Source of the DNA: a virus
Taxonomy: Duplodnaviria > Heunggongvirae > Uroviricota > Caudoviricetes
Virus record (IMG/VR): IMGVR_UViG_2925903241_000005
Coordinates: 1-46,437 of that record
DNA: 46,437 bases
Strand: one strand, 5' to 3'
This document shows positions 35,253 to 43,856 of this stretch, one piece after another. Both the position numbers and the translations under genes were made by a program. Within the stretch, counting starts at the first letter, position 1. Each line of letters begins with the position of its first letter. The notes under the pieces are model-generated. The model was not told the DNA's origin. It made no database searches and was given only the letters and a program-made list of their open reading frames with translations.

Positions 35253-35713
35253 TCTTCACCCGATGCAGCGCGCTTGCTGCTTTTCCGTAAACACCGCTCA
35301 CGACGCGCAAGAAAATTGTTTCGCTCTTGCTGGGAGTGGCTTTCACGGAATGCCGCCATCCACACCGTTGCAGCACGACGGTATAAGCCCCTGGACTCCA
35401 GTTCTTCCGCCTGGCGGGTCAGGCATAAAATCACCCGGGGATCGTTAGTGCCGACATAGAAATTGCGCACAGATCTGGTTTCTCGAACTGGTTGTGGTTC
35501 CGGTTCCTGCGCTCTCTCAGTCAGGCGCGGAAAATGTCTGCGTGTATCTCCTTCACAACGGTGAGCCACACGCCCACTCTGACGTAACTTGCTTGCAGAC
35601 TGCAGAACGCGCTGCCGTGAGTAACCTGCAAAAGCATCCGTAATGTCTCCGGAAGTACACCCCGGATGGGCTTCAATGAATTTCTGAACGTCATTCAAAA
35701 GACTCATGATCAC
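35219..35713 (-). CDS. hypothetical early-region protein
   Basis: 164-aa ORF translationally coupled to the O-like gene upstream and to Dam downstream; a PerC-like resemblance is only a vague impression. Confidence 0.35.
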   Translation of the reverse strand: MIMSLLNDVQKFIEAHPGCTSGDITDAFAGYSRQRVLQSASKLRQSGRVAHRCEGDTRRHFPRLTERAQEPEPQPVRETRSVRNFYVGTNDPRVILCLTRQAEELESRGLYRRAATVWMAAFRESHSQQERNNFLARRERCLRKSSKRAASGEEWYLSGNYVGA

Positions 35714-36651
35714 CCCCTGAATCCTGCCGGGATCTGGCTGTAGTCCACGTTGTCGTAACTGGATTTGAAGTACGGGTCTTCGCGTTTTTCGGTGTACGTG
35801 CTGACGGACGGCGATAAGCGCAGGGAAAGCTCATCCCATTTTTCCCGCAACTTCGACGGGCTGAGCACGTTACGGCACCAGAACGGATCGCGGCTGACGC
35901 GGCTGTACATCTCGCAGATTTGTTTGTGAGTACGACCATCCTGCACGCACATCAGGCGAATTTCGTTTGCCCAGGCTGTCCAGTTCGGTTCTTTGGGACG
36001 AACCACCTCGCCGTCACATTCGGCAGCCTGCTCGTACAGGGCGATGATTTTTTTCCAGAGCCACTGTGCGCAGGTCAAATCATCCTGCGTTCCCCACTGG
36101 CGCTTTTTAGGGCTGAATACAACCGCATCAGGATGGCGAGTTAAAAACTCTTGTTCAGCCGTCTGCGTGTCCGGTTGCGAAGCGTCCGGACGAGAAGTTT
36201 TTTTATCTGACGGATCATGTTTTGATTTTACTGACGGATCCCCGCCAGATTCTGACGGGTGAAAACCCGCTTTTTTGCCAGATTTCGACGCATCAAATTT
36301 TGACTGGTCAGATTTTGATGCGTCAGATTTTGACGGGTCAGAATCTGACAGTTGAGAAAATGCCGCTGCCTGAAGCTTCGCAACGTTAAGCTGATAAACA
36401 TTCGACGCATTGCGGTTACCCTGGCGACGCGCCTTACGCGTTAACCAGCCTTCTGCTTCCAGCCGTGCGATAGCCGTTCTGACGGTGCTCATCCCCGCGC
36501 CAATCTGGCGGGCAATGGTTTCAATTGATGGCCAGCACACACCTTCGTCATTACTGAAATCAGCCAGGCGGGCCATAATTGCCACGCTGGATAACTTCAT
36601 GCCTGACGCAGCGCAACCATCCCATACATAGCCGGTTAATTTAGTGCTCAT
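35710..36651 (-). CDS. replication initiator (O-like; N-terminal winged HTH, repetitive linker, C-terminal domain)
   Basis: N-terminus ..CWPSIETIARQIGAGMSTVRTAIARLEAEGWLTRK.. HTH; central SKSDASKSDQSKFDASKS repeats encoded by iteron-like DNA repeats; position after cro and CII-like genes. Confidence 0.55.
   Translation of the reverse strand: MSTKLTGYVWDGCAASGMKLSSVAIMARLADFSNDEGVCWPSIETIARQIGAGMSTVRTAIARLEAEGWLTRKARRQGNRNASNVYQLNVAKLQAAAFSQLSDSDPSKSDASKSDQSKFDASKSGKKAGFHPSESGGDPSVKSKHDPSDKKTSRPDASQPDTQTAEQEFLTRHPDAVVFSPKKRQWGTQDDLTCAQWLWKKIIALYEQAAECDGEVVRPKEPNWTAWANEIRLMCVQDGRTHKQICEMYSRVSRDPFWCRNVLSPSKLREKWDELSLRLSPSVSTYTEKREDPYFKSSYDNVDYSQIPAGFRG
36205..36350. repeat. iteron-like tandem repeats inside the initiator gene (candidate ori)
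   Basis: At least eight degenerate copies of about 11-12 bp (GATTTTGACGG / GATTCTGACGG / GATTTCGACG) at 12-18 bp spacing. Confidence 0.45.
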
Positions 36652-36660
36652 GACCGACCT

Positions 36661-36999
36661 CTATTTCCCTGAATTTACGACGAAACTGTTCGAGCGGGCT
36701 GAAGCACTCATGCTCATAGCCTTCGCGGAGGTAGATAACCCGTTGTGTTTCCGGTTCCCAACGAATGACTCTGACGGGCACTCCGTAGTGATCTTTGAAC
36801 CAGCGGTTAACTTGTCGCAAAGGACTGTCTCCTTTTGCCGGTTGAAATCACCCACAGCCCACTCTGCAAAGCTGTGGGTTACAATTTCCCTGTCACCTGG
36901 TACATTCACTGCATAGCAATACTCCACCTTCGCTTTTCCACCCGGTACAGGAAGTGCAATCAGTTGCGAGCGACGGTAGTGTGTTGTTAAACTGTTCAT
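36661..36999 (-). CDS. hypothetical protein (early right operon)
   Basis: 112-aa ORF with ATGA start/stop overlap to the upstream gene; C-terminal half is low complexity, so true length is uncertain. Confidence 0.3.
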
Positions 37000-37667
37000 G
37001 CGTTAGTTTCTCCACAACCAGAAGCAATCGACGCCACGACGCCCGGAGCTGCACACTCGCGGGCGTCATTACTTTCTGAAATGCAAAAAATTTTGTAGAC
37101 AAGTGCTGCATGCTCCTGCAGCTTCGAAATTGAGAGATACAGCTCGTCGTTAATTGCTGTCTTCTCATGCGGTTCCACTACACCGTCTTCGATTGCTGAA
37201 CGAATCTGTTTTGAATAACTGCCGATCTGTTCAATGACTTCCAGCAGACGCTGGTTAATATCGGCGTTGTCCACATCCTCGACGTCAGGAAGAGACACAA
37301 AGACGCCATTTGCAGACTGCGCCACAGCATCAGCAATGAAGTGAGTTCCACCAGCACGTTGCAAAATCATTGCCCATCCCAGCGGGAAAATCTGATCGCC
37401 ATCAGCACGAAGGCGGTTAAATAATGCGTTCTCTGTTACATCCAGCCAGTCAGCTGCTTCAGCGTAACCACCCGGCAACTTTGCGATAGTTTTTCTGACA
37501 GCTTTCACGTACCACTCAGGCTGTTTTTCTACTTTCCAGTGATGCTTACCCACGGTTAGCCTCATCGTTCTGTGGTTTCTGTTAATCGATTTATCCATTA
37601 GATTTTTCATAAAGCTCAGGTTTAAATGGCAACCGTCCGCAAGTTCTATATGCAGCTTCTGCTGCAC
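36996..37667 (-). CDS. CII-like / YdaT-like regulatory protein
   Basis: Position immediately after cro-like gene; start probably an internal Met (about 37598) to avoid a 77-bp overlap with cro. Family call is by synteny and weak recall. Confidence 0.35.
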
Positions 37668-37791
37668 GTCCTTTTGGAATTAACTGGCCCGGACGGTTTC
37701 GCCACTGATAAACGGCTTCAGTTGTTATGCCGAAAAAAGCAGCAACTTTCTCAATACTGCCGAAGTAGCTTTCGATATCGTCAGTTGTCAT
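37591..37791 (-). CDS. cro: Cro-like HTH regulator (YdaS-like)
   Basis: 66 aa, ..[30 protein letters not shown].. HTH; divergent from the repressor gene across an operator region. Confidence 0.6.
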   Translation of the reverse strand: MTTDDIESYFGSIEKVAAFFGITTEAVYQWRNRPGQLIPKGRAAEAAYRTCGRLPFKPELYEKSNG

Positions 37792-37888
37792 ACGCCCTCC
37801 AAACTAAGTTTTATTAGATGCTAATTACAAATCTATCTTTGGTCAATAAAAACTAAGATTACTTAGCAATTCAAGAAATGGTGCTCCT
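37792..37888. promoter_or_regulatory. OR-like operator/promoter region (pR and pRM) with CTAAG-N4-CTTAG palindromes
   Basis: Two 14-bp palindromes (CTAAGTTTTATTAG and CTAAGATTACTTAG) between divergent cro-like and cI-like genes. Confidence 0.45.
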
Positions 37889-38515
37889 ATGGAAACGGTT
37901 GGTCAGCGTATAAAAGCTCTGAGAAGAGTTACCAGAACGTCCCAGAAAGAATTGGGTAAATTTTGTGGAGTAAGCGACGTTGCTGTGGGGTACTGGGAGA
38001 AAGACATCAATACCCCTGGTGGGGAGGCACTTTCGAAATTAGCGAAGTTCTTCAATACGTCAATAGATTACATTCTTTATGGTGCTGAGTTTGAAGGCAA
38101 ACTCGTCACAAACATGCGCAGAGTTCCTGTAATATCGTGGGTTCAGGCTGGGCAGTTTACTGAGTGCAGGGCAGCAGAAGTGTTTAGTGAAGTGGACAAG
38201 TGGGTAGATACATCATTAAAGATTGGTGATAACTCATTTGCATTAGAGGTTAAAGGTGACTCCATGACTAACCCTAATGGCCTCCCAACAATACCAGAAG
38301 GCGCAACAGTGATTGTAGATCCAGATGCAGAACCTCGTCATGGAAAAATAGTCATCGCTCGACTTGATGGAACAAACGAAGCTACAGTAAAAAAATTAGT
38401 CATCGATGGCCCTCAAAAGTTTTTAGTGCCATTAAATCCTCGGTATCCCAACATCCCTATCAATGGTAATTGCCTTATCATTGGTGTAGTCAAAGGAGTT
38501 CAATACGAACTCTAA
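37889..38515 (+). CDS. cI: CI-type prophage repressor (HTH + LexA-like S24 autopeptidase domain)
   Basis: N-terminal HTH (..TSQKELGKFCGVSDVAVGYWEKD..) and C-terminal S24 motifs (..LEVKGDSMTNPNG.. Ser; ..TVKKLV.. Lys). Confidence 0.85.
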   Translation: METVGQRIKALRRVTRTSQKELGKFCGVSDVAVGYWEKDINTPGGEALSKLAKFFNTSIDYILYGAEFEGKLVTNMRRVPVISWVQAGQFTECRAAEVFSEVDKWVDTSLKIGDNSFALEVKGDSMTNPNGLPTIPEGATVIVDPDAEPRHGKIVIARLDGTNEATVKKLVIDGPQKFLVPLNPRYPNIPINGNCLIIGVVKGVQYEL

Positions 38516-38700
38516 GACCTCTCTTCTCTAACTAAGGCACCGAACTAAGAAAAGTTTGGTGTTTTCTCTTGCCATAATAACTAAGTTAAGTTAGATTTTA
38601 TGTCAAAGATAACGAACAGGCAGGACGCCCACGAAGTAGCCGCCGGTGGCGTATGAATGACCGGATGATTCGTTAAATACTATGTGTAAGAGAGCGCAAA
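38516..38700 (+). promoter_or_regulatory. OL/pL-like region with the same operator half-sites
   Basis: AACTAAGGCACCGAACTAAG and CTAAGTTAAGTTAG motifs; candidate -35 TTGCCA and -10 TAGATT with 17-bp spacing. Confidence 0.4.
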
Positions 38701-38902
38701 TGAACCGTTATTTCACATGCTCGTTTTGTGGCGCAAACGAGCTGCAGGCAAAAAAATCATCGCCAAAGGCGGAAAAGATGAAGTTGCTATCTGCTCTGAG
38801 TGCGTAGTCTTGTGTGTCGGAGCATTAATCAATATCAGCACAACTATTCAGTTCACACCAAATGAGAATGCGCCTTTAGATGCGCGGAAATCTGGAGGTT
38901 AA
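38700..38902 (+). pseudogene. ClpX-type C4 zinc-finger-like small protein, interrupted by a frameshift in an A7 tract
   Basis: One frame gives MNRYFTCSFCGANELQAKK; the +1 frame gives ..KKIIAKGGKDEVAICSECVVLC.. Joined they give CSFCG-x21-CSEC, like the ClpX N-terminal zinc finger. The switch is at 'gcaaaaaaatc'. Confidence 0.45.
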
Positions 38903-38910
38903 AGAACAAA

Positions 38911-39186
38911 ATGAAAGTCCAGATTTTAAACAATAGTGGTGAAGTCGTTTGGTCATACGACATAGCCGCTCCTGTAGATCAGAGCGGCGATAGCTGGACC
39001 AATGGGAAACATCAGATTATGGCTGGAGTTGTATTCTCTTTACACCGTGCTTTGGAACAGGCTGAAGTATTTCCATCAGACCCTGAATGGAAATGGCCTT
39101 TTTCTATTTGTCCAAATTCGGAGAGCACATTTCAGAAAATTGGTCAGAAAGTCGCACTCGAAGAGCATCAGCCAACTGTTTTCTGA
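38911..39186 (+). CDS. hypothetical protein (early-left operon)
   Basis: 91-aa ORF with a GGAGG RBS about 8 nt upstream; 3' end converges on a minus-strand ORF. Confidence 0.35.
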   Translation: MKVQILNNSGEVVWSYDIAAPVDQSGDSWTNGKHQIMAGVVFSLHRALEQAEVFPSDPEWKWPFSICPNSESTFQKIGQKVALEEHQPTVF

Positions 39187-39349
39187 TTTTTTCAGGTAAC
39201 TCGTCGGCATCGCAGAAACAACAACGCTCGATCATGTTGAAAGCCGATTCGTAGAACTGTTTCTGCTGAGTGTCGCTGAGACAGGAAAAGAGCGACGTTA
39301 CGATGATTTTATTAATTGCATTATCAAGTTCTTTTTCATCAAAAGTCAT
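39104..39349 (-). CDS. hypothetical protein (antisense to early-left operon)
   Basis: 81-aa ORF with AGGAAA RBS 7 nt upstream; protein-like composition; overlaps 38911..39186 by about 83 bp. Confidence 0.3.
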   Translation of the reverse strand: MTFDEKELDNAINKIIVTSLFSCLSDTQQKQFYESAFNMIERCCFCDADELPEKIRKQLADALRVRLSDQFSEMCSPNLDK

Positions 39350-39596
39350 TTGATTTTCCTTTTATGTATACGGGCTTAAAAGGATACCACCGAGCCTGAA
39401 GTGGTGAAAAGACAGGCACATAACAGCTAAGTATTTTCAACCAGAGAGAATCCTTAGCGTTGTGGTGAATGCGGCTCAGCGCACGCGGGTTAAGGTTGAG
39501 GCTGACAGTCGACCTTCTGTGGATACCCACCCGTCTGGTGTGCAACCTTCGCCAGGCACCGGGAGGCACCCGGCACCACAACTTTATGCTGTGTGT

Positions 39597-39649
39597 AGTC
39601 TTGGCGGTACCAGTTTGTACCCTTGCTTCCGGCTGGTACCGCTCTTTTT
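39597..39649 (+). ncRNA. dicF: DicF-like small RNA
   Basis: TTGGCGGTACCAGTTTGTACC... matches the remembered E. coli DicF 5' region (TTTGGCGGTATCAGTTTTAC) at about 15 of 16 positions; ends in a 10-bp perfect hairpin (GCGGTACCAG/CTGGTACCGC) plus TCTTTTT. Confidence 0.55.
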
Positions 39650-39768
39650 ACAAAACAGAGAAGAGCATCACCGGACGACGGGCTCATAACCCAATCCATC
39701 CGGGCGGCTGCCACCGCAGGTGTTCTTCTCTGTTTTGTGGAGAAACCAACCGACCTTGCAGGGTCGAT

Positions 39769-40149
39769 ATGATGAGGAGCAGCAAAATGGCTAGCGAACG
39801 CAGTACTGATGTGCAGGCATTTATCGGGGAGCTGGACGGCGGCGTATTTGAAACCAAAATCGGCGCAGTTCTCAGTGAAGTCGCTTCCGGTGTGATGAAC
39901 ACGAAAACCAAAGGTAAGGTCTCGCTTAACCTGGAAATCGAACCGTTTGATGAGAACCGTGTGAAAATAAAACATAAACTCTCATATGTTCGCCCGACTA
40001 ACCGCGGGAAAATTTCCGAAGAAGACACCACCGAAACGCCGATGTATGTCAATCGCGGTGGTCGCCTGACTATTCTGCAGGAAGACCAGGGACAATTACT
40101 GACTCTTGCCGGTGAACCTGACGGAAAACTCCGCGCAGCAGGTCATTAA
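39769..40149 (+). CDS. YfdP-like hypothetical protein
   Basis: 126 aa from the internal MMRSSKMASERS; upstream part of the 226-aa track ORF covers the structured RNA region; call rests on remembered YfdP-Q-R-S-T gene order. Confidence 0.4.
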   Translation: MMRSSKMASERSTDVQAFIGELDGGVFETKIGAVLSEVASGVMNTKTKGKVSLNLEIEPFDENRVKIKHKLSYVRPTNRGKISEEDTTETPMYVNRGGRLTILQEDQGQLLTLAGEPDGKLRAAGH

Positions 40150-40213
40150 TATCGTTTTTAATTAACTGATTATTTATCTCATCACTGAATATTTTATATA
40201 GTGAGGACTGATT

Positions 40214-41038
40214 ATGTCTCAGAACTTAGACGCAACCGCAATTAATCAAATCCATGCCCTTATTTCTGCTCAGGGTGTTAATGAAATTATCAGTAAGATT
40301 GGTGCCGATGCTGTGGCATTGCCTGAGAATTTCCGCATTCATGATCTGGAAAAATTTAATTTAAATCGCTTCCGTTTCCGTGGTGCGCTTTCCACTGCCA
40401 GCATCGATGACTTTACCCGTTATTCTAAAGATCTTGCAGATGAAGGCACCCGCTGCTTTATCGATGCTGATAATATGCGTGCCGTCAGTGTGCTTAACTT
40501 GGGTACTATTGATGAACCAGGTCACGCAGATAACACCGCCACTCTCAAACTGAAAAAGACAGCACCGTTCTCTGCCCTGTTGTCTGTTAACGGCGAGCGT
40601 AACTCCCAGAAGTCACTGGCAGAATGGATTGAAGACTGGGCCGACTACCTTGTGGGCTTTGATGCTAATGGTGACGCCATTCAGGCAACCAAAGCTGCTG
40701 CGGCGATCCGTAAAATCACAATTGAAGCGAACCAGACCGCTGATTTTGAAGATAATGACTTCAGCGGCAAACGCTCCCTGATGGAGTCTGTCGAAGCGAA
40801 GACCAAAGACATTATGCCTGTGGCATTTGAATTTAAATGCGTTCCGTTTGAAGGTCTGAAAGAACGTCCGTTTAAATTACGCCTCAGCATTATCACTGGC
40901 GATCGTCCTGTACTGGTTCTGCGCATTATTCAGCTGGAAGCGGTGCAGGAAGAAATGGCTAACGAATTTCGTGATCTGCTTGTTGAGAAATTCAAAGACA
41001 GCAAAGTAGAAACCTTTATTGGTACTTTCACCGCCTGA
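40214..41038 (+). CDS. YfdQ-like protein (DUF2303)
   Basis: 274 aa, same length as YfdQ as recalled; followed by an HD-domain gene as in that block. Confidence 0.45.
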
Positions 41039-41138
41039 TTTCATTACTGCAAATGCCCCTGCGGGGGCATTTATGGAAACGTAATTAACTCAATAATCAC
41101 CGGATGGTGAGGGCTTCCTTTTACCAGAATTCAGCGCG

Positions 41139-41702
41139 GTGCAGTGCATATACGTGGAGAATAAAATGTCATTTATTAAAACTTTTTCCGGGAAGCATTT
41201 TTATTATGACAAGATAAATAAAGACGACATCGATATTAACGATATCGCGGTTTCCCTTTCAAATATCTGTCGCTTTGCCGGTCATCTTTCGCACTTCTAC
41301 AGCGTCGCCCAACATGCGGTTCTTTGCAGCATGCTGGTGCCGCAGGAATTTGCTTTTGAAGCGTTAATGCATGATGCAACAGAAGCGTATTGCCAGGACA
41401 TCCCGGCTCCACTGAAACGCCTTCTTCCTGACTATAAACGGATGGAAGAAAAAATAGACGCCGTAATCCGTGAGAAATACGGGTTACCCCCGGTTATGAG
41501 CACGCCCGTGAAATATGCCGATCTCATCATGCTGGCAACCGAACGCCGCGATCTCGGGCTTGATGATGGCTCTTTCTGGCCTGTACTGGAAGGTATCCCG
41601 GCAACAGAGATGTTCAAAGTGATTCCACTGTCGCCAGGCCATGCCTATGGGATGTTTATGGAACGTTTTAACGAGTTATCGGAGTTACGCAAATGCGCAT
41701 GA
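41139..41702 (+). CDS. HD-domain phosphohydrolase (YfdR-like 5'-deoxynucleotidase)
   Basis: ..SHFYSVAQHAV.. and ..LMHDATEAY.. HD-motif residues; start probably the internal MSFIKTF. Confidence 0.6.
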   Translation: MQCIYVENKMSFIKTFSGKHFYYDKINKDDIDINDIAVSLSNICRFAGHLSHFYSVAQHAVLCSMLVPQEFAFEALMHDATEAYCQDIPAPLKRLLPDYKRMEEKIDAVIREKYGLPPVMSTPVKYADLIMLATERRDLGLDDGSFWPVLEGIPATEMFKVIPLSPGHAYGMFMERFNELSELRKCA

Positions 41703-42055
41703 ATGTTTTCGAAATGGAAGGGTTTCTTCGCGGGAAATGTGTACCGCGAGATCTGAAAGTGAACGAAACAAATGCTGAGTACCTAGTACGTAAATTCGAC
41801 GCGCTTGAAGCTAAATGTGCGGCACTGGAAAACAAAATAATACCAGTGTCAGCTGAACTGCCACCTGCAAATGAAAGTGTTCTGTTATTTGATGCTAACG
41901 GAGAAGGCTGGCTAATTGGCTGGCGTTCTCTCTGGTACACCTGGGGACAAAAAGAAACCGGAGAATGGCAGTGGACATTTCAGGTCGGGGACCTTGAAAA
42001 CGTCAATATCACTCACTGGGCAGTAATGCCGAAAGCACCGGAGAATAAGAAATGA
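41693..42055 (+). CDS. DUF551-like protein (YfdS-like)
   Basis: 120 aa; C-terminal ..GEGWLIGWRS.WYTWGQKETGEWQW..ITHWAVMP.. Trp-rich motif. Confidence 0.4.
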   Translation: MRMNVFEMEGFLRGKCVPRDLKVNETNAEYLVRKFDALEAKCAALENKIIPVSAELPPANESVLLFDANGEGWLIGWRSLWYTWGQKETGEWQWTFQVGDLENVNITHWAVMPKAPENKK

Positions 42056-42267
42056 GCGTGATAAAAACTCATACAGGAATTGTTATTACCCGAAACGGTC
42101 CGCAGGTAAAAAAACTGCACCAGACAAAGCGGATGTGGGTCGTCGGAGAAAACGAGTTTTACCACAAAGAAACCGGACGCCGCCACTTTGCAGAAAATAC
42201 GCGCCGCCGACTGCTCCTGGACAGCATCAGGCCAATTAAACAGGTAGCAACCAGAGAACAAAATTAA
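42052..42267 (+). CDS. hypothetical protein
   Basis: 71-aa ORF with ATGA overlap to the upstream gene. Confidence 0.35.
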   Translation: MSVIKTHTGIVITRNGPQVKKLHQTKRMWVVGENEFYHKETGRRHFAENTRRRLLLDSIRPIKQVATREQN

Positions 42268-42328
42268 TTATCAGGACTGAAATTTGATATTACTGCCCGT
42301 GTGCAGCGGGTTAAGTGGAGAAACAGCC

Positions 42329-42538
42329 ATGGCAAAACTAATGAAAGCGAGCCAATGGGGACGCCGTGAATTCTCTAATGGCTCAATTCCTGACAACCGA
42401 ACGATAAAACGCTGGGTCGAGAACGGTCTGCTCATGGGGCGTATCGTGGACGGTTCTGTTTTTGTCTGCGAAACAGAAAAATGGGGAGTCGACTCAATGG
42501 TTAGTCAAGCTGTTCGCAAGTTAATAAATGAGGGATGA
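42329..42538 (+). CDS. xis: excisionase (Xis-like)
   Basis: About 69 aa from ATG after a GGAG RBS; ..RTIKRWVENGLLMGRIVDGSVFVCE.. resembles excisionase winged-helix; stop overlaps the int start (ATGA). Confidence 0.6.
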   Translation: MAKLMKASQWGRREFSNGSIPDNRTIKRWVENGLLMGRIVDGSVFVCETEKWGVDSMVSQAVRKLINEG

Positions 42539-43719
42539 CCATGGCGGCAAGGCCACGTAAAAAAGAATACAGACATCTTCCTGATTATCTGGTTTTTGAT
42601 AAAGATCGAGGTGTTTATAAATTCACACTTATTACCGGAAAAAAGAAAAATATAGGTAAGGATCGGGCAATAGCCGTTGCAATCGCCAGAGAGTACAACC
42701 TGAGGATGCGATCAGAATTATACCCATCAGTGGATAATCTTATTAGAGAATCTGGCGGGGTCACCGGAGAAGCAAAACCATTTGCTGAACATGTCGATCA
42801 CATAATGGCCAGAATTATCGAAGACGAACGACCTTCCCAGAGTACCTTAGATGACTGGAAAAATGACGCTCTACGCGTAAAAGCGTTTTTCGTAAATGTT
42901 CCGGCATGCGATATCGAACTTGAACACGTTAATGCCTACATCAACAAATATCATGCCAGCGCATCCGCAAATGTGCAGAACAGAAAGGTCAGCTTTCTTA
43001 AAAAGTTGTTCTCTTATGCGGTCGATGAATCACTAATGCAGGATAACCCGGCCATCAGAAAAAAAATGCGTAGGACTGATGAGAAGAAAAGACGGCGCCT
43101 GTCACTCGAACATTTTATAGCTATCAGGCAGGCCGCTGCACCATGGTTAAGAACAGCAATGGACCTAGCATTGCAGACTACACATGCACGACTCGAAGTA
43201 TCGCGAATCCGTTACTCAATTCGCGAACCTAAAGACGGTTTATGTGGATGTGTTTGGTTCGAACAACCACAAAATGGCATATATGGTACACTATACATCC
43301 ATAGGCAAAAAGTACAAAAAAAGGAGGCATCACATGTTGCAATACCAATTGGTGAAGAATTGAAACGGATAATTGACAATAGCCGTGACAATGTGGCCAG
43401 TCCCTTTGTCGTTCATAGAATCCCAGAACGGCATGTTAAACGCAGTAAAGAGGTTTCGCACCCAACTCAAGTTGCACCAGATTATTTGAGTCGGTCATTC
43501 TCTTCCGTGCGAGACAAACTCGGACTATGCAATCATCTAGCAATGGAACAAAGACCTACATTCCATGAAATAAGAGCTTTGGCAGCTCACCTATTTGATA
43601 AACAAGGGATTGATCCGCAGGGACGAATGGCACATAGCGATGCGAAATCTACTAAAATTTATACTAAAAATCATATAGATTGGATTGTTGTCCCTCATGG
43701 AGAAATTAAAACCGGTTAG
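42535..43719 (+). CDS. int: tyrosine integrase (lambda Int family)
   Basis: 394 aa; ..PTFHEIRALAAHLF.. and ..AHSDAKSTKIYTKNH.. catalytic-region motifs; position at the prophage end after xis. Confidence 0.9.
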   Translation: MTMAARPRKKEYRHLPDYLVFDKDRGVYKFTLITGKKKNIGKDRAIAVAIAREYNLRMRSELYPSVDNLIRESGGVTGEAKPFAEHVDHIMARIIEDERPSQSTLDDWKNDALRVKAFFVNVPACDIELEHVNAYINKYHASASANVQNRKVSFLKKLFSYAVDESLMQDNPAIRKKMRRTDEKKRRRLSLEHFIAIRQAAAPWLRTAMDLALQTTHARLEVSRIRYSIREPKDGLCGCVWFEQPQNGIYGTLYIHRQKVQKKEASHVAIPIGEELKRIIDNSRDNVASPFVVHRIPERHVKRSKEVSHPTQVAPDYLSRSFSSVRDKLGLCNHLAMEQRPTFHEIRALAAHLFDKQGIDPQGRMAHSDAKSTKIYTKNHIDWIVVPHGEIKTG

Positions 43720-43856
43720 TTATTAAATTCTCCACTTTATTTTGACTGACAATAACGGTTGCTAAGGCATAGAGTAAAGCTTAATTTAAAAGGCAGTTCT
43801 ATGCCCATTTACCATAACTTCTCCCTTGTCCAGAAAGCAATATTTATTAATAAAAT

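What the first reader, a model, noticed from the sequence alone, without database searches (positions are those of the whole stretch)
38700..38902. ClpX-zinc-finger-like gene immediately after OL/pL broken at an A7 run
CSFCG and CSEC motifs with ClpX-like spacing fall in two frames joined at 'gcaaaaaaatc'. A phage ClpX-ZBD mimic could interfere with ClpXP adaptor/substrate recognition. The frameshift is +1, opposite to the DUF2971 case, which argues for independent homopolymer indels or errors rather than one slippage mechanism.
Basis: seen in the sequence. Interest (0 to 1): 0.45.

Follow-up and report, generated by a model that had tools for sequence, protein, structure and literature searches.

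The report
Frameshifted prophage ClpX-like zinc-finger gene
A small prophage gene encoding a stand-alone copy of the zinc finger of the ClpX unfoldase is broken here by loss of one A from a run of eight; this is an ordinary inherited mutation, and the function of the intact, already catalogued protein has never been tested.

Summary
ATG 38700 opens MNRYFTCSFCGANELQAKK. After the A7 run (38750-38756) the rest (IIAKGGKDEVAICSECVVLC..., stop 38900-38902) continues in the -1 frame.

Intact orthologues have A8 in one frame and encode a 67-aa protein that NCBI's PGAP pipeline already names "ClpX C4-type zinc finger protein". The window therefore carries a 1-bp deletion. A ribosome would need a -1 shift to bypass it, not +1.

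The repaired protein passes Pfam zf-C4_ClpX (41.4 bits against a cutoff of 27). Its model superposes on the ClpX zinc-binding domain (ZBD; TM 0.80-0.84).

The A7 allele is real and inherited:
- 24 of 96 E. coli complete-genome records with this gene carry it.
- These include all 20 genomes holding this same prophage at 99.6-100% identity.
- It also occurs on four other backgrounds.

It is not a programmed site. Diverged orthologues lack the A-run, no stimulatory element is evident, and no A7 carrier has reverted.

The gene family is under purifying selection (dN/dS about 0.1-0.25). It sits first in the pL operon, behind a conserved structured leader RNA. A role as a ClpX-ZBD decoy is plausible but untested.

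Verdict: a known family carrying an ordinary mutation; low interest. The leader RNA is the more interesting by-product.

The parts
38569..38597 (+). Promoter-like site (TTGCCA, 17 nt, TAGATT), the candidate pL, flanked by aactaag-type repeats that look like operators
   Evidence: consensus scan only. The layout cro(-) / cI(+) / this site comes.
38612..38673 (+). Conserved structured leader RNA with three helices: P1 38612-16/38669-73, P2 38619-21/38627-29, P3 38643-47/38660-64. It belongs to the pL leader, not to the gene.
   Evidence: 96.7% of cells are paired against 21-45% when the 3' partners are slid. Covariation score 0.554 against at most 0.114. No Rfam hit.
38700..38756 (+). 5' part of the zinc-finger gene (frame 0): MNRYFTCSFCGANELQAKK, carrying the first CxxC pair (C7, C10)
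   Evidence: The start codon aligns with the start of Salmonella phage 118970_sal3 gp052.
38750..38756 (+). A7 run. It is A8 (GCA AAA AAA ATC) in intact alleles, so this is the site of the 1-bp deletion. In frame 0 it reads A_AAA_AAA.
38805..38807 (+). Stop codon (tag) reached in frame 0 after the frameshift. The product is a 35-aa peptide with only one CxxC pair.
   Evidence: ORF 38682-38807.
38756..38902 (+). 3' part of the gene in the -1 frame: IIAKGGKDEVAICSECVVLCVGALIN... with the second CxxC pair, the helix and a variable tail. Stop taa at 38900-38902.
38911..39186 (+). Next gene of the operon (like SfV orf33, phrog_3195, function unknown). Its GGAGG ribosome-binding site lies inside the 3' end of the zinc-finger gene.
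37889..38515 (+). cI-type repressor (HTH_3 plus Peptidase_S24), same orientation, upstream of pL

Best explanation
Window 38700-38902 is a mutant allele of a small early gene of a lambdoid (SfV/e14/CPS-53-like) prophage. The intact gene encodes a 67-aa stand-alone ClpX-type C4 zinc-binding domain and is the first gene after pL and its structured leader RNA.

In this prophage lineage one A was lost from an A8 run (GCA AAA AAA ATC to GCA AAA AAA TC), most likely by replication slippage. Normal decoding now ends after 35 residues with only one CxxC pair, so the zinc finger cannot form. This is a null or strongly hypomorphic allele.

The deletion is real, heritable and stable. It is not a read error and not a programmed recoding site. 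At most, a trace of full-length protein could arise from spontaneous -1 ribosomal slippage on A_AAA_AAA or from RNA polymerase adding an A, either of which would recreate exactly the wild-type sequence.

For the intact protein, the most likely mode of action (inferred, about 0.3) is as a free mimic of the ClpX N-terminal domain. It would compete for ligands that dock on the hydrophobic patch of that domain (SspB, RssB, lambda-O-type degrons), or would mix into ClpX ZBD dimers, thereby altering ClpXP substrate choice early after induction.
For: Shown:
- Two-frame anatomy and the A7 run.
- A8 single-frame orthologues in Salmonella phage 118970_sal3 and in E. coli G4/9, ECCHD184 and RM10466, named 'ClpX C4-type zinc finger protein' by PGAP.
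- Among 96 E. coli complete-genome records with the gene: 24 exact A7, 64 exact A8.
- All 20 genomes carrying this prophage segment at 99.6-100% identity over 12.4 kb are A7. The nearest relative (T309.Ta3, 97.8%) is A8.
- In the IMG/VR viral contig collection, 4 of 48 contigs with this allele type are A7.
- A7 also occurs in other immunity-region contexts that also hold A8 alleles.
- The exact repaired 67-aa protein is on at least 1000 contigs, against 17 for the 61-aa ORF.
- Diverged orthologues replace the run with GCA AAA AAG CTC, GCG ATA AAG ATC or GCG ATG AAG ATC.
- There is no marked local RNA structure (z = -1.07).
- The zinc-finger core is under purifying selection: dN/dS 0.09-0.25, with synonymous sites near saturation.
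- Domain identity: Pfam 41.4 bits against 27; PDB ClpX ZBD E = 2.5e-4; AlphaFold core pLDDT 77-91; Foldseek top seven hits all ClpX ZBD, TM 0.80-0.84, rmsd 1.4-1.7 A.

Inferred:
- The decoy role. The residue equivalent to ClpX F16 is invariant in the family, and the residue equivalent to I46 is mostly hydrophobic. The F16/I46 patch is the lambda O, SspB and RssB docking site, and the ZBD is required for lambda O degradation (PMC7804408).
Against: - No expression, zinc-binding or interaction data exist for any member of the family.
- Sequencing technology for the A7 assemblies is unknown, and some singleton A7 calls (for example NCTC9038) could be homopolymer errors.
- This prophage's replication initiator is an HTH_36-type protein, not a lambda O homologue, so the most obvious client for a decoy is missing.
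- The protein has a 3-residue insert (KGG) in the loop between the two CxxC pairs relative to ClpX, so its binding surface may differ.
- Hundreds of unrelated small proteins carry this finger (635 hits at E <= 1e-3), so the fold does not by itself imply action on ClpXP.
- Low-level slippage rescue cannot be excluded computationally.
Confidence: 0.8

Rival explanations
1. Sequencing or assembly error: the true sequence is A8, and the gene is intact in the organism the window comes from.
For: Homopolymers of eight are the classic site of long-read indel errors. Some A7 alleles are singletons on haplotypes that otherwise carry A8. NCTC9038 is one of them.
Against: The identical A7 allele is in 24 complete-genome records. 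These include six separate assemblies of the Ec-050 line and strains from several countries and hosts. All 20 genomes with this prophage lineage are A7 and none is A8. Three IMG/VR contigs from other isolates carry the same haplotype with A7.
Confidence: 0.06
2. Programmed recoding: the A7 run is a functional -1 ribosomal frameshift or transcriptional slippage site. It would yield both a 35-aa peptide and the full 67-aa protein in a set ratio.
For: In frame 0 the run reads A_AAA_AAA, a canonical X_XXY_YYZ slippery heptamer. A -1 shift, or one extra A in the mRNA, gives exactly the wild-type protein. A weak 5-bp hairpin (UCGCC-AAA-GGCGG) starts 3 nt after the run.
Against: About three quarters of alleles are A8 in a single frame. 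Diverged orthologues have no run at all. The hairpin overlaps the conserved IAKGG codons, and the region folds no better than shuffles (z = -1.07). No Shine-Dalgarno-like element was seen by eye at the 10-14 nt spacing used by dnaX-type sites (spacing from my own knowledge). The 35-aa frame-0 product is not conserved anywhere.
Confidence: 0.08
3. Phase-variable (contingency) switch: the run toggles between A7 and A8 to turn the gene off and on in lysogen populations.
For: A7 occurs on at least four different upstream backgrounds that also have A8, suggesting recurrent change. A Salmonella relative shows a 3-nt contraction of the same run (P0017, DAKIIAKGG).
Against: Only two lengths were seen in E. 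coli; no A9 or A6 occurred among 54 loci read. The A7 lineage has diverged by up to 0.4% over 12.4 kb without a single reversion. An 8-nt run is short for a contingency locus (own knowledge).
Confidence: 0.04
4. The real gene is the 61-aa single-frame ORF 38717-38902, and the upstream CSFCG is coincidental.
For: It is an open ATG-initiated ORF, and gene callers have deposited it (17 contigs).
Against: It has no ribosome-binding site and falls below the Pfam cutoff (21.7 bits against 27). Its first 12 residues are frame-shifted translation of the conserved N-terminus. Every orthologue conserves the upstream CxxC in frame.
Confidence: 0.02

Closest known systems
N-terminal zinc-binding domain (ZBD) of E. 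coli ClpX (PDB 1OVX, 2DS5-2DS8)
   Same: CxxC...CxxC zinc-ribbon fold followed by a helix. 43% identity over 37 residues, including CSFCG, (K/R)K(L/I)IA and ICxECVxLC. Model rmsd is 1.4-1.7 A. The F16 equivalent is conserved.
   Different: No AAA+ module (ClpX equivalog models score 23-26 bits against cutoffs of about 360). There is a 3-residue insert in the inter-knuckle loop. The C-terminal tail is variable and low-confidence. It is encoded by prophages.
PGAP 'ClpX C4-type zinc finger protein' WP_001083098.1 / phrog_5259 / Salmonella phage 118970_sal3 gp052
   Same: This is the same gene. The repaired window product is identical to a protein seen on at least 1000 contigs. It occupies the same position after the pL leader RNA.
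   Different: The window allele has A7 instead of A8 and so cannot make the protein by standard decoding. PGAP leaves it unannotated or calls short hypothetical ORFs.
Mycobacterial ClpC2, a stand-alone partial homologue of the ClpC1 N-terminal domain that acts as a decoy (PMC10030653)
   Same: A free copy of the ligand-docking N-terminal domain of a Clp unfoldase. This is the kind of mechanism proposed here.
   Different: Different domain family and organism. It is a host protein, not a phage protein, and it binds an antibiotic. Nothing has been tested for the phage protein.
Lambda cIII, a pL-operon inhibitor of the host AAA+ protease FtsH (from my own knowledge)
   Same: A small early-left-operon protein that modulates a host AAA+ protease.
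   Different: No sequence or fold relation. cIII is a competitive substrate-like inhibitor of FtsH.
-1 programmed frameshift sites of dnaX and IS elements (A_AAA_AAG type; from my own knowledge)
   Same: An A-rich X_XXY_YYZ heptamer in the correct frame.
   Different: No conserved stimulators. The two-frame arrangement is absent from orthologues.
HK022 putL antiterminator RNA (PMC9378689), for the leader element only
   Same: A roughly 60-70 nt structured RNA transcribed immediately downstream of pL in lambdoid phages with no N-like gene visible in the pL-proximal slot.
   Different: The covariance model of the element does not match HK022 putL or putR, and there is no second copy in the window. 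The architecture is a closing helix around two hairpins.

Membership tests
zf-C4_ClpX domain (Pfam PF06689) | Profile score above the curated gathering threshold | tested here: met
   The repaired 67-aa product scores 41.4 bits against 27. The actual single-frame 61-aa ORF scores only 21.7 bits, below the cutoff.
zf-C4_ClpX domain (Pfam PF06689) | Four Cys ligands in two CxxC knuckles in one polypeptide | tested here: not met
   In the window as it stands, C7 and C10 are in frame 0 and C32 and C35 are in the -1 frame. The feature is met only after adding one A, as in A8 orthologues.
zf-C4_ClpX domain (Pfam PF06689) | ClpX ZBD fold | tested here: met
   The AlphaFold model of P0001 (99% identical to the repaired product) has core pLDDT 77-91. 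The Foldseek top seven PDB hits are all ClpX ZBD, with TM 0.80-0.84.
zf-C4_ClpX domain (Pfam PF06689) | Zinc binding and dimerisation | not testable with these tools
   Needs purified protein (metal analysis, size-exclusion chromatography or NMR).
ClpX unfoldase proper | AAA+ ATPase module after the ZBD | tested here: not met
   The protein is 67 aa. NCBIfam ClpX equivalogs score 25.8 and 22.7 bits against cutoffs of 359 and 371.
ClpX-ZBD decoy / anti-adaptor (proposed function) | Binds ZBD-docking ligands (SspB XB tail, RssB, lambda O) or ClpX itself | not testable with these tools
   Only indirect evidence: the F16 equivalent is invariant and the I46 equivalent is mostly hydrophobic (PMC7804408).
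Programmed -1 ribosomal frameshift site | Slippery heptamer X_XXY_YYZ in the zero frame | tested here: met
   gc-A AAA AAA-tca, with codons 17-19 at 38748-38756.
Programmed -1 ribosomal frameshift site | Stimulatory element (downstream structure or upstream Shine-Dalgarno-like sequence) | tested here: inconclusive
   There is only a 5-bp hairpin over the conserved IAKGG codons. The region's folding z-score is -1.07.
Programmed -1 ribosomal frameshift site | Two-frame arrangement and slippery site conserved in orthologues | tested here: not met
   Orthologues are single-frame with A8, or have no run at all.
Homopolymer phase-variation (contingency) locus | Frequent reversible length changes within lineages | tested here: not met
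   All 20 genomes of the A7 prophage lineage remain A7 despite up to 0.4% divergence. No A6 or A9 was seen.
HK022-type put antiterminator RNA (leader element 38612-38673) | Homology to put, paired putL/putR copies, and antitermination activity | tested here: not met
   The covariance model gives no match to HK022 put, and there is no second copy in the window. Activity is not testable here. Only position and size agree.

The most novel reading that the evidence does not exclude
The intact family (phrog_5259) is a phage-encoded mimic of the ClpX N-terminal domain. Made first from pL, it would soak up adaptors or degrons that dock on the ClpX ZBD, or poison ZBD dimers. That would reprogram ClpXP proteolysis during induction, making it a viral anti-adaptor for ClpXP. 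The slippery A-run would then let A7 alleles such as this one still leak a low dose of the protein.
Probability: 0.2. Interest if true: 0.6.

Novelty: already known. Interest (0 to 1): 0.25.

Why it matters
As it stands, this mainly matters for annotation. The locus should be called a frameshifted pseudogene of the 'ClpX C4-type zinc finger protein' gene, not left blank or given 41-aa and 61-aa hypothetical ORFs.

The frameshift offers natural isogenic on/off alleles (A8 and A7) of an uncharacterised, strongly conserved, pL-proximal prophage gene. If the protein does act on ClpXP docking, it would be a new kind of phage control over host proteolysis. The A7 prophages would be ready-made controls for testing that.

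The conserved leader RNA just upstream is widespread. About a quarter of complete E. coli genomes match a query dominated by it. It is absent from Rfam, and it deserves a separate look as a candidate antiterminator.

Tried and rejected
- Rfam scan of 37500-40500. Nothing at the gene or the leader; only a sub-threshold STnc100-like match at 39429-39651.
- Literature searches for phage stand-alone ClpX zinc fingers, four queries. Nothing relevant found.
- The classic ZBD papers (Thibault 2006, Wojtyra 2003) and King 2011 on put-like RNAs could not be opened. The residue-level comparison therefore rests on PMC7804408 only.
- PADLOC. No hit for the zinc-finger protein or its two neighbours.
- NCBIfam. 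Only far-sub-threshold ClpX equivalog hits.
- Conserved recoding site. Rejected after reading diverged orthologues.
- Selection for the A-run inferred from its retention between the E. coli and sal3 alleles despite saturated synonymous sites. Rejected. From my own rough codon-usage estimate, GCA-AAA-AAA would be retained by chance about 13% of the time, and other clades lack the run.
- HK022 put homology of the leader RNA. Rejected at the sequence and covariance-model level.
- Protection of a lambda-O-type initiator as the specific client. Weakened, because this prophage's initiator is an HTH_36 protein.

Full report
**1. What is in the sequence**

Reading 38300-39300 and listing ORFs shows an ATG at 38700 preceded by aagagag. 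It opens MNRYFTCSFCGANELQAKK. After a run of seven A (38750-38756), this frame continues SSPKAEKMKLLSALSA and stops at 38805-38807.

The ORF 38717-38902 lies one base back (38717 - 38700 = 17). From 38756 it reads IIAKGGKDEVAICSECVVLCVGALINISTTIQFTPNENAPLDARKSGG, with the stop at 38900-38902.

The direction label is not. The downstream frame is -1 relative to the upstream one. One base has to be added to the DNA, or a ribosome has to slip back by one, to join the halves. The joined product is 67 aa, not 68.

**2. Is it a ClpX-type zinc finger?**

- The joined protein hits Pfam zf-C4_ClpX at E = 1.3e-10, 41.4 bits against a cutoff of 27. The 61-aa single-frame ORF scores only 21.7 bits.
- phmmer against PDB sequences returns only ClpX chains; the best is the isolated ZBD, 2DS5, at E = 2.5e-4.
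- BLASTP against the E. coli ClpX N-terminus gives 43% identity over 37 residues.
- An AlphaFold model built on a 12-sequence family alignment has mean pLDDT 72.5 (core blocks 77-91, disordered tail).
- The model's top seven Foldseek hits in PDB are all ClpX ZBD, with target-normalised TM 0.80-0.84 and rmsd 1.4-1.7 A.
- There is no AAA+ module, and the ClpX equivalog models score about 25 bits against cutoffs of about 360.

**3. Orthologues settle the frameshift**

Salmonella phage 118970_sal3 gp052 is a 57-aa single-frame protein, MNNYYTCSFCGANEMDAKKIIAKGG...ICSECVVRC. Its DNA reads GCA AAA AAA ATT, that is A8.

E. coli G4/9, ECCHD184 and RM10466 carry alleles 98-99% identical to the window but with A8. 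PGAP names the 67-aa product 'ClpX C4-type zinc finger protein' (WP_001083098.1). The window therefore has a 1-bp deletion in an A8 run.

Diverged members of the family found in IMG/VR encode the same core without the run: GCA AAA AAG CTC, GCG ATA AAG ATC and GCG ATG AAG ATC. The homopolymer is thus an accident of codon choice in one subclade, not a conserved recoding signal.

The region around the run folds no better than shuffled sequence (z = -1.07). The only nearby hairpin is 5 bp over the conserved IAKGG codons.

**4. Real mutation or error?**

Population counts:
- With 61- and 62-nt probes, 96 E. coli complete-genome records hold this gene. 24 match A7 exactly, 64 match A8 exactly, and 8 differ otherwise.
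- A 12.4-kb query (34000-46437) finds 20 genomes at 99.6-100% identity. These include the ST167-type clone (AR216.2b, AR202.2, six Ec-050 assemblies, ST167, 2-331), CCUG 73778, an O25b:H4-ST131 strain and others. Every one of them is on the A7 list.
- The next relative (T309.Ta3, 97.8%) is A8.
- Three IMG/VR contigs from other isolates share the window's exact haplotype and A7.

Other backgrounds:
- A7 also turns up in strain 135, which shares a SNP with A8 strain G4/9.
- It occurs in UPEC_U013 and RMDEC465 (XRE-type repressor) and in NCTC9038 (XRE repressor plus a BRCT-domain gene, the same context as A8 strain ECCHD184).
- It occurs in one more IMG/VR contig.

The simplest reading is one ancestral deletion inherited by this prophage lineage, plus a few independent hits (or occasional assembly errors) at a mutable run. 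No A6 or A9 was seen, and the A7 lineage never reverted. That argues against a fast phase switch.

The exact repaired protein is on at least 1000 contigs in the 15-billion-protein collection, against 17 for the 61-aa ORF.

**5. Is the intact gene functional?**

Yes, by evolutionary criteria. Across four subclades the 45-codon core has dN of 0.16-0.27. Synonymous sites are near or beyond saturation, giving dN/dS of 0.09-0.25 where it can be computed.

An exhaustive HMMER search shows two tiers:
- a compact clade of roughly a dozen 50%-identity clusters at E < 1e-17, all small proteins with variable tails;
- then a broad swarm of small proteins with one to four such fingers, with true ClpX at about 1e-5.

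PHROGs files the protein under phrog_5259, 'unknown function'. PADLOC has nothing.

**6. Context**

The window holds a lambdoid prophage. The gene order is P22-type cro (37591-37791, -), a CP76/CII-like gene, cI with HTH_3 and Peptidase_S24 (37889-38515, +), then a promoter-like site at 38569-38597. This is followed by the zinc-finger gene, an SfV-orf33-like gene (38911-39186), yfdP/Q/R-like genes and the integrase.

Between promoter and gene lies a 62-nt element (38612-38673), discussed in section 8.

**7. Mechanism**

*Shown.* The allele cannot give a zinc finger by standard decoding.

*Inferred.* Any full-length product would need spontaneous slippage. The run in frame 0 is A_AAA_AAA, and either a -1 ribosomal shift or one extra A in the mRNA restores exactly AKKIIAKGG. 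The yield is probably low.

*For the intact protein.* The best available hypothesis is a free ClpX-ZBD mimic.
- The ZBD is the docking site for SspB, RssB, trigger factor and lambda O, through a hydrophobic patch including F16 and I46. It is required for lambda O degradation (PMC7804408).
- The F16 equivalent is invariant in the phage family, and the I46 equivalent is usually hydrophobic.
- A stand-alone N-domain decoy has a precedent in mycobacterial ClpC2 (PMC10030653).
- A pL-operon inhibitor of a host AAA+ protease has one in lambda cIII (own knowledge).

*Against.* Nothing has been tested. The finger has a 3-residue loop insert. This prophage's initiator is not lambda-O-like. The fold is used by many unrelated small proteins. 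I put the decoy idea at about 0.2-0.3.

**8. The leader RNA (a by-product)**

The invariant core is CACGAAGTAGCCGCC. The element occurs after pL in SfV, ST64B, SfII, SfIV, mEp460, mEp237 and in Yersinia, Pantoea, Pectobacterium, Providencia, Aeromonas and Klebsiella phages. About 1400 of 5426 E. coli genomes match a 326-nt query, mainly through it.

In 42 distinct variants, three helices are 96.7% paired, against 21-45% for slid controls. Eight of 13 pairs show double changes.

The first gene behind the element varies between phages, so it belongs to the operon leader, not to the zinc-finger gene.

It has no Rfam match. Its covariance model does not match HK022 putL or putR and finds no second copy in the window. 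The analogy with put RNA therefore rests on position and size only (PMC9378689). King 2011, which may already describe it, could not be read.

**9. Verdict**

- The object is a frameshifted allele of an already catalogued, uncharacterised prophage gene. It is ordinary as a mutation and of modest interest as a gene family.

Noticed in passing
window 38612-38673 (+): Highly conserved 62-nt structured RNA element, 8-15 nt downstream of the predicted pL start. It has an invariant core, CACGAAGTAGCCGCC, and three helices with strong covariation (96.7% paired against 21-45% in slid controls). It is found after pL in many enterobacterial, Providencia and Aeromonas temperate phages and in about a quarter of complete E. 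coli genomes. It is not in Rfam and is not homologous to HK022 put by covariance model. It is a candidate leader or antiterminator RNA for phages with no N-like gene at the head of pL.
   Followed up: yes
window 39429-39651 (+): Sub-threshold match to the Rfam sRNA family STnc100 (44.3 bits against a gathering score of 47, E = 1.2e-7), with a DicF-like terminal hairpin. PGAP annotates a 'frameshifted hypothetical protein' pseudogene over the same stretch in every related genome looked at, both A7 and A8. The 'pseudogene' may really be an sRNA gene.
   Followed up: partly
window 38911-39186 (+) and 39104-39349 (-): Two convergent ORFs overlap by 83 nt, and each matches its own PHROG family very strongly (phrog_3195 at 1.4e-62; phrog_3311 at 1.2e-55). 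PGAP annotates one or the other in different genomes. Which is expressed, or whether both are, is unclear.
   Followed up: no
window 43857-44819 (-): The DUF2971 protein just beyond the integrase matches the PADLOC candidate defence family PDC-S31 (best E = 3.5e-22; Pfam DUF2971).
   Followed up: no
P0013 / P0012 / P0017 (Salmonella relatives of L002 1587-1927): In a very common Salmonella allele (P0013, 112 aa, at least 1000 contigs), the zinc-finger gene is fused in frame to the next small gene. The fusion appears to come from an indel near the stop codon. P0017 lacks one Lys codon of the same A-run. Small indels are therefore recurrent at this locus.
   Followed up: partly
P0016 (2505 aa; library hit, not in the window): The top hit of the exhaustive profile search is a 2505-aa protein with 37 matched stretches of the ClpX-type finger (E = 7.9e-71). 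It is a giant tandem array of this domain, of unknown origin.
   Followed up: no
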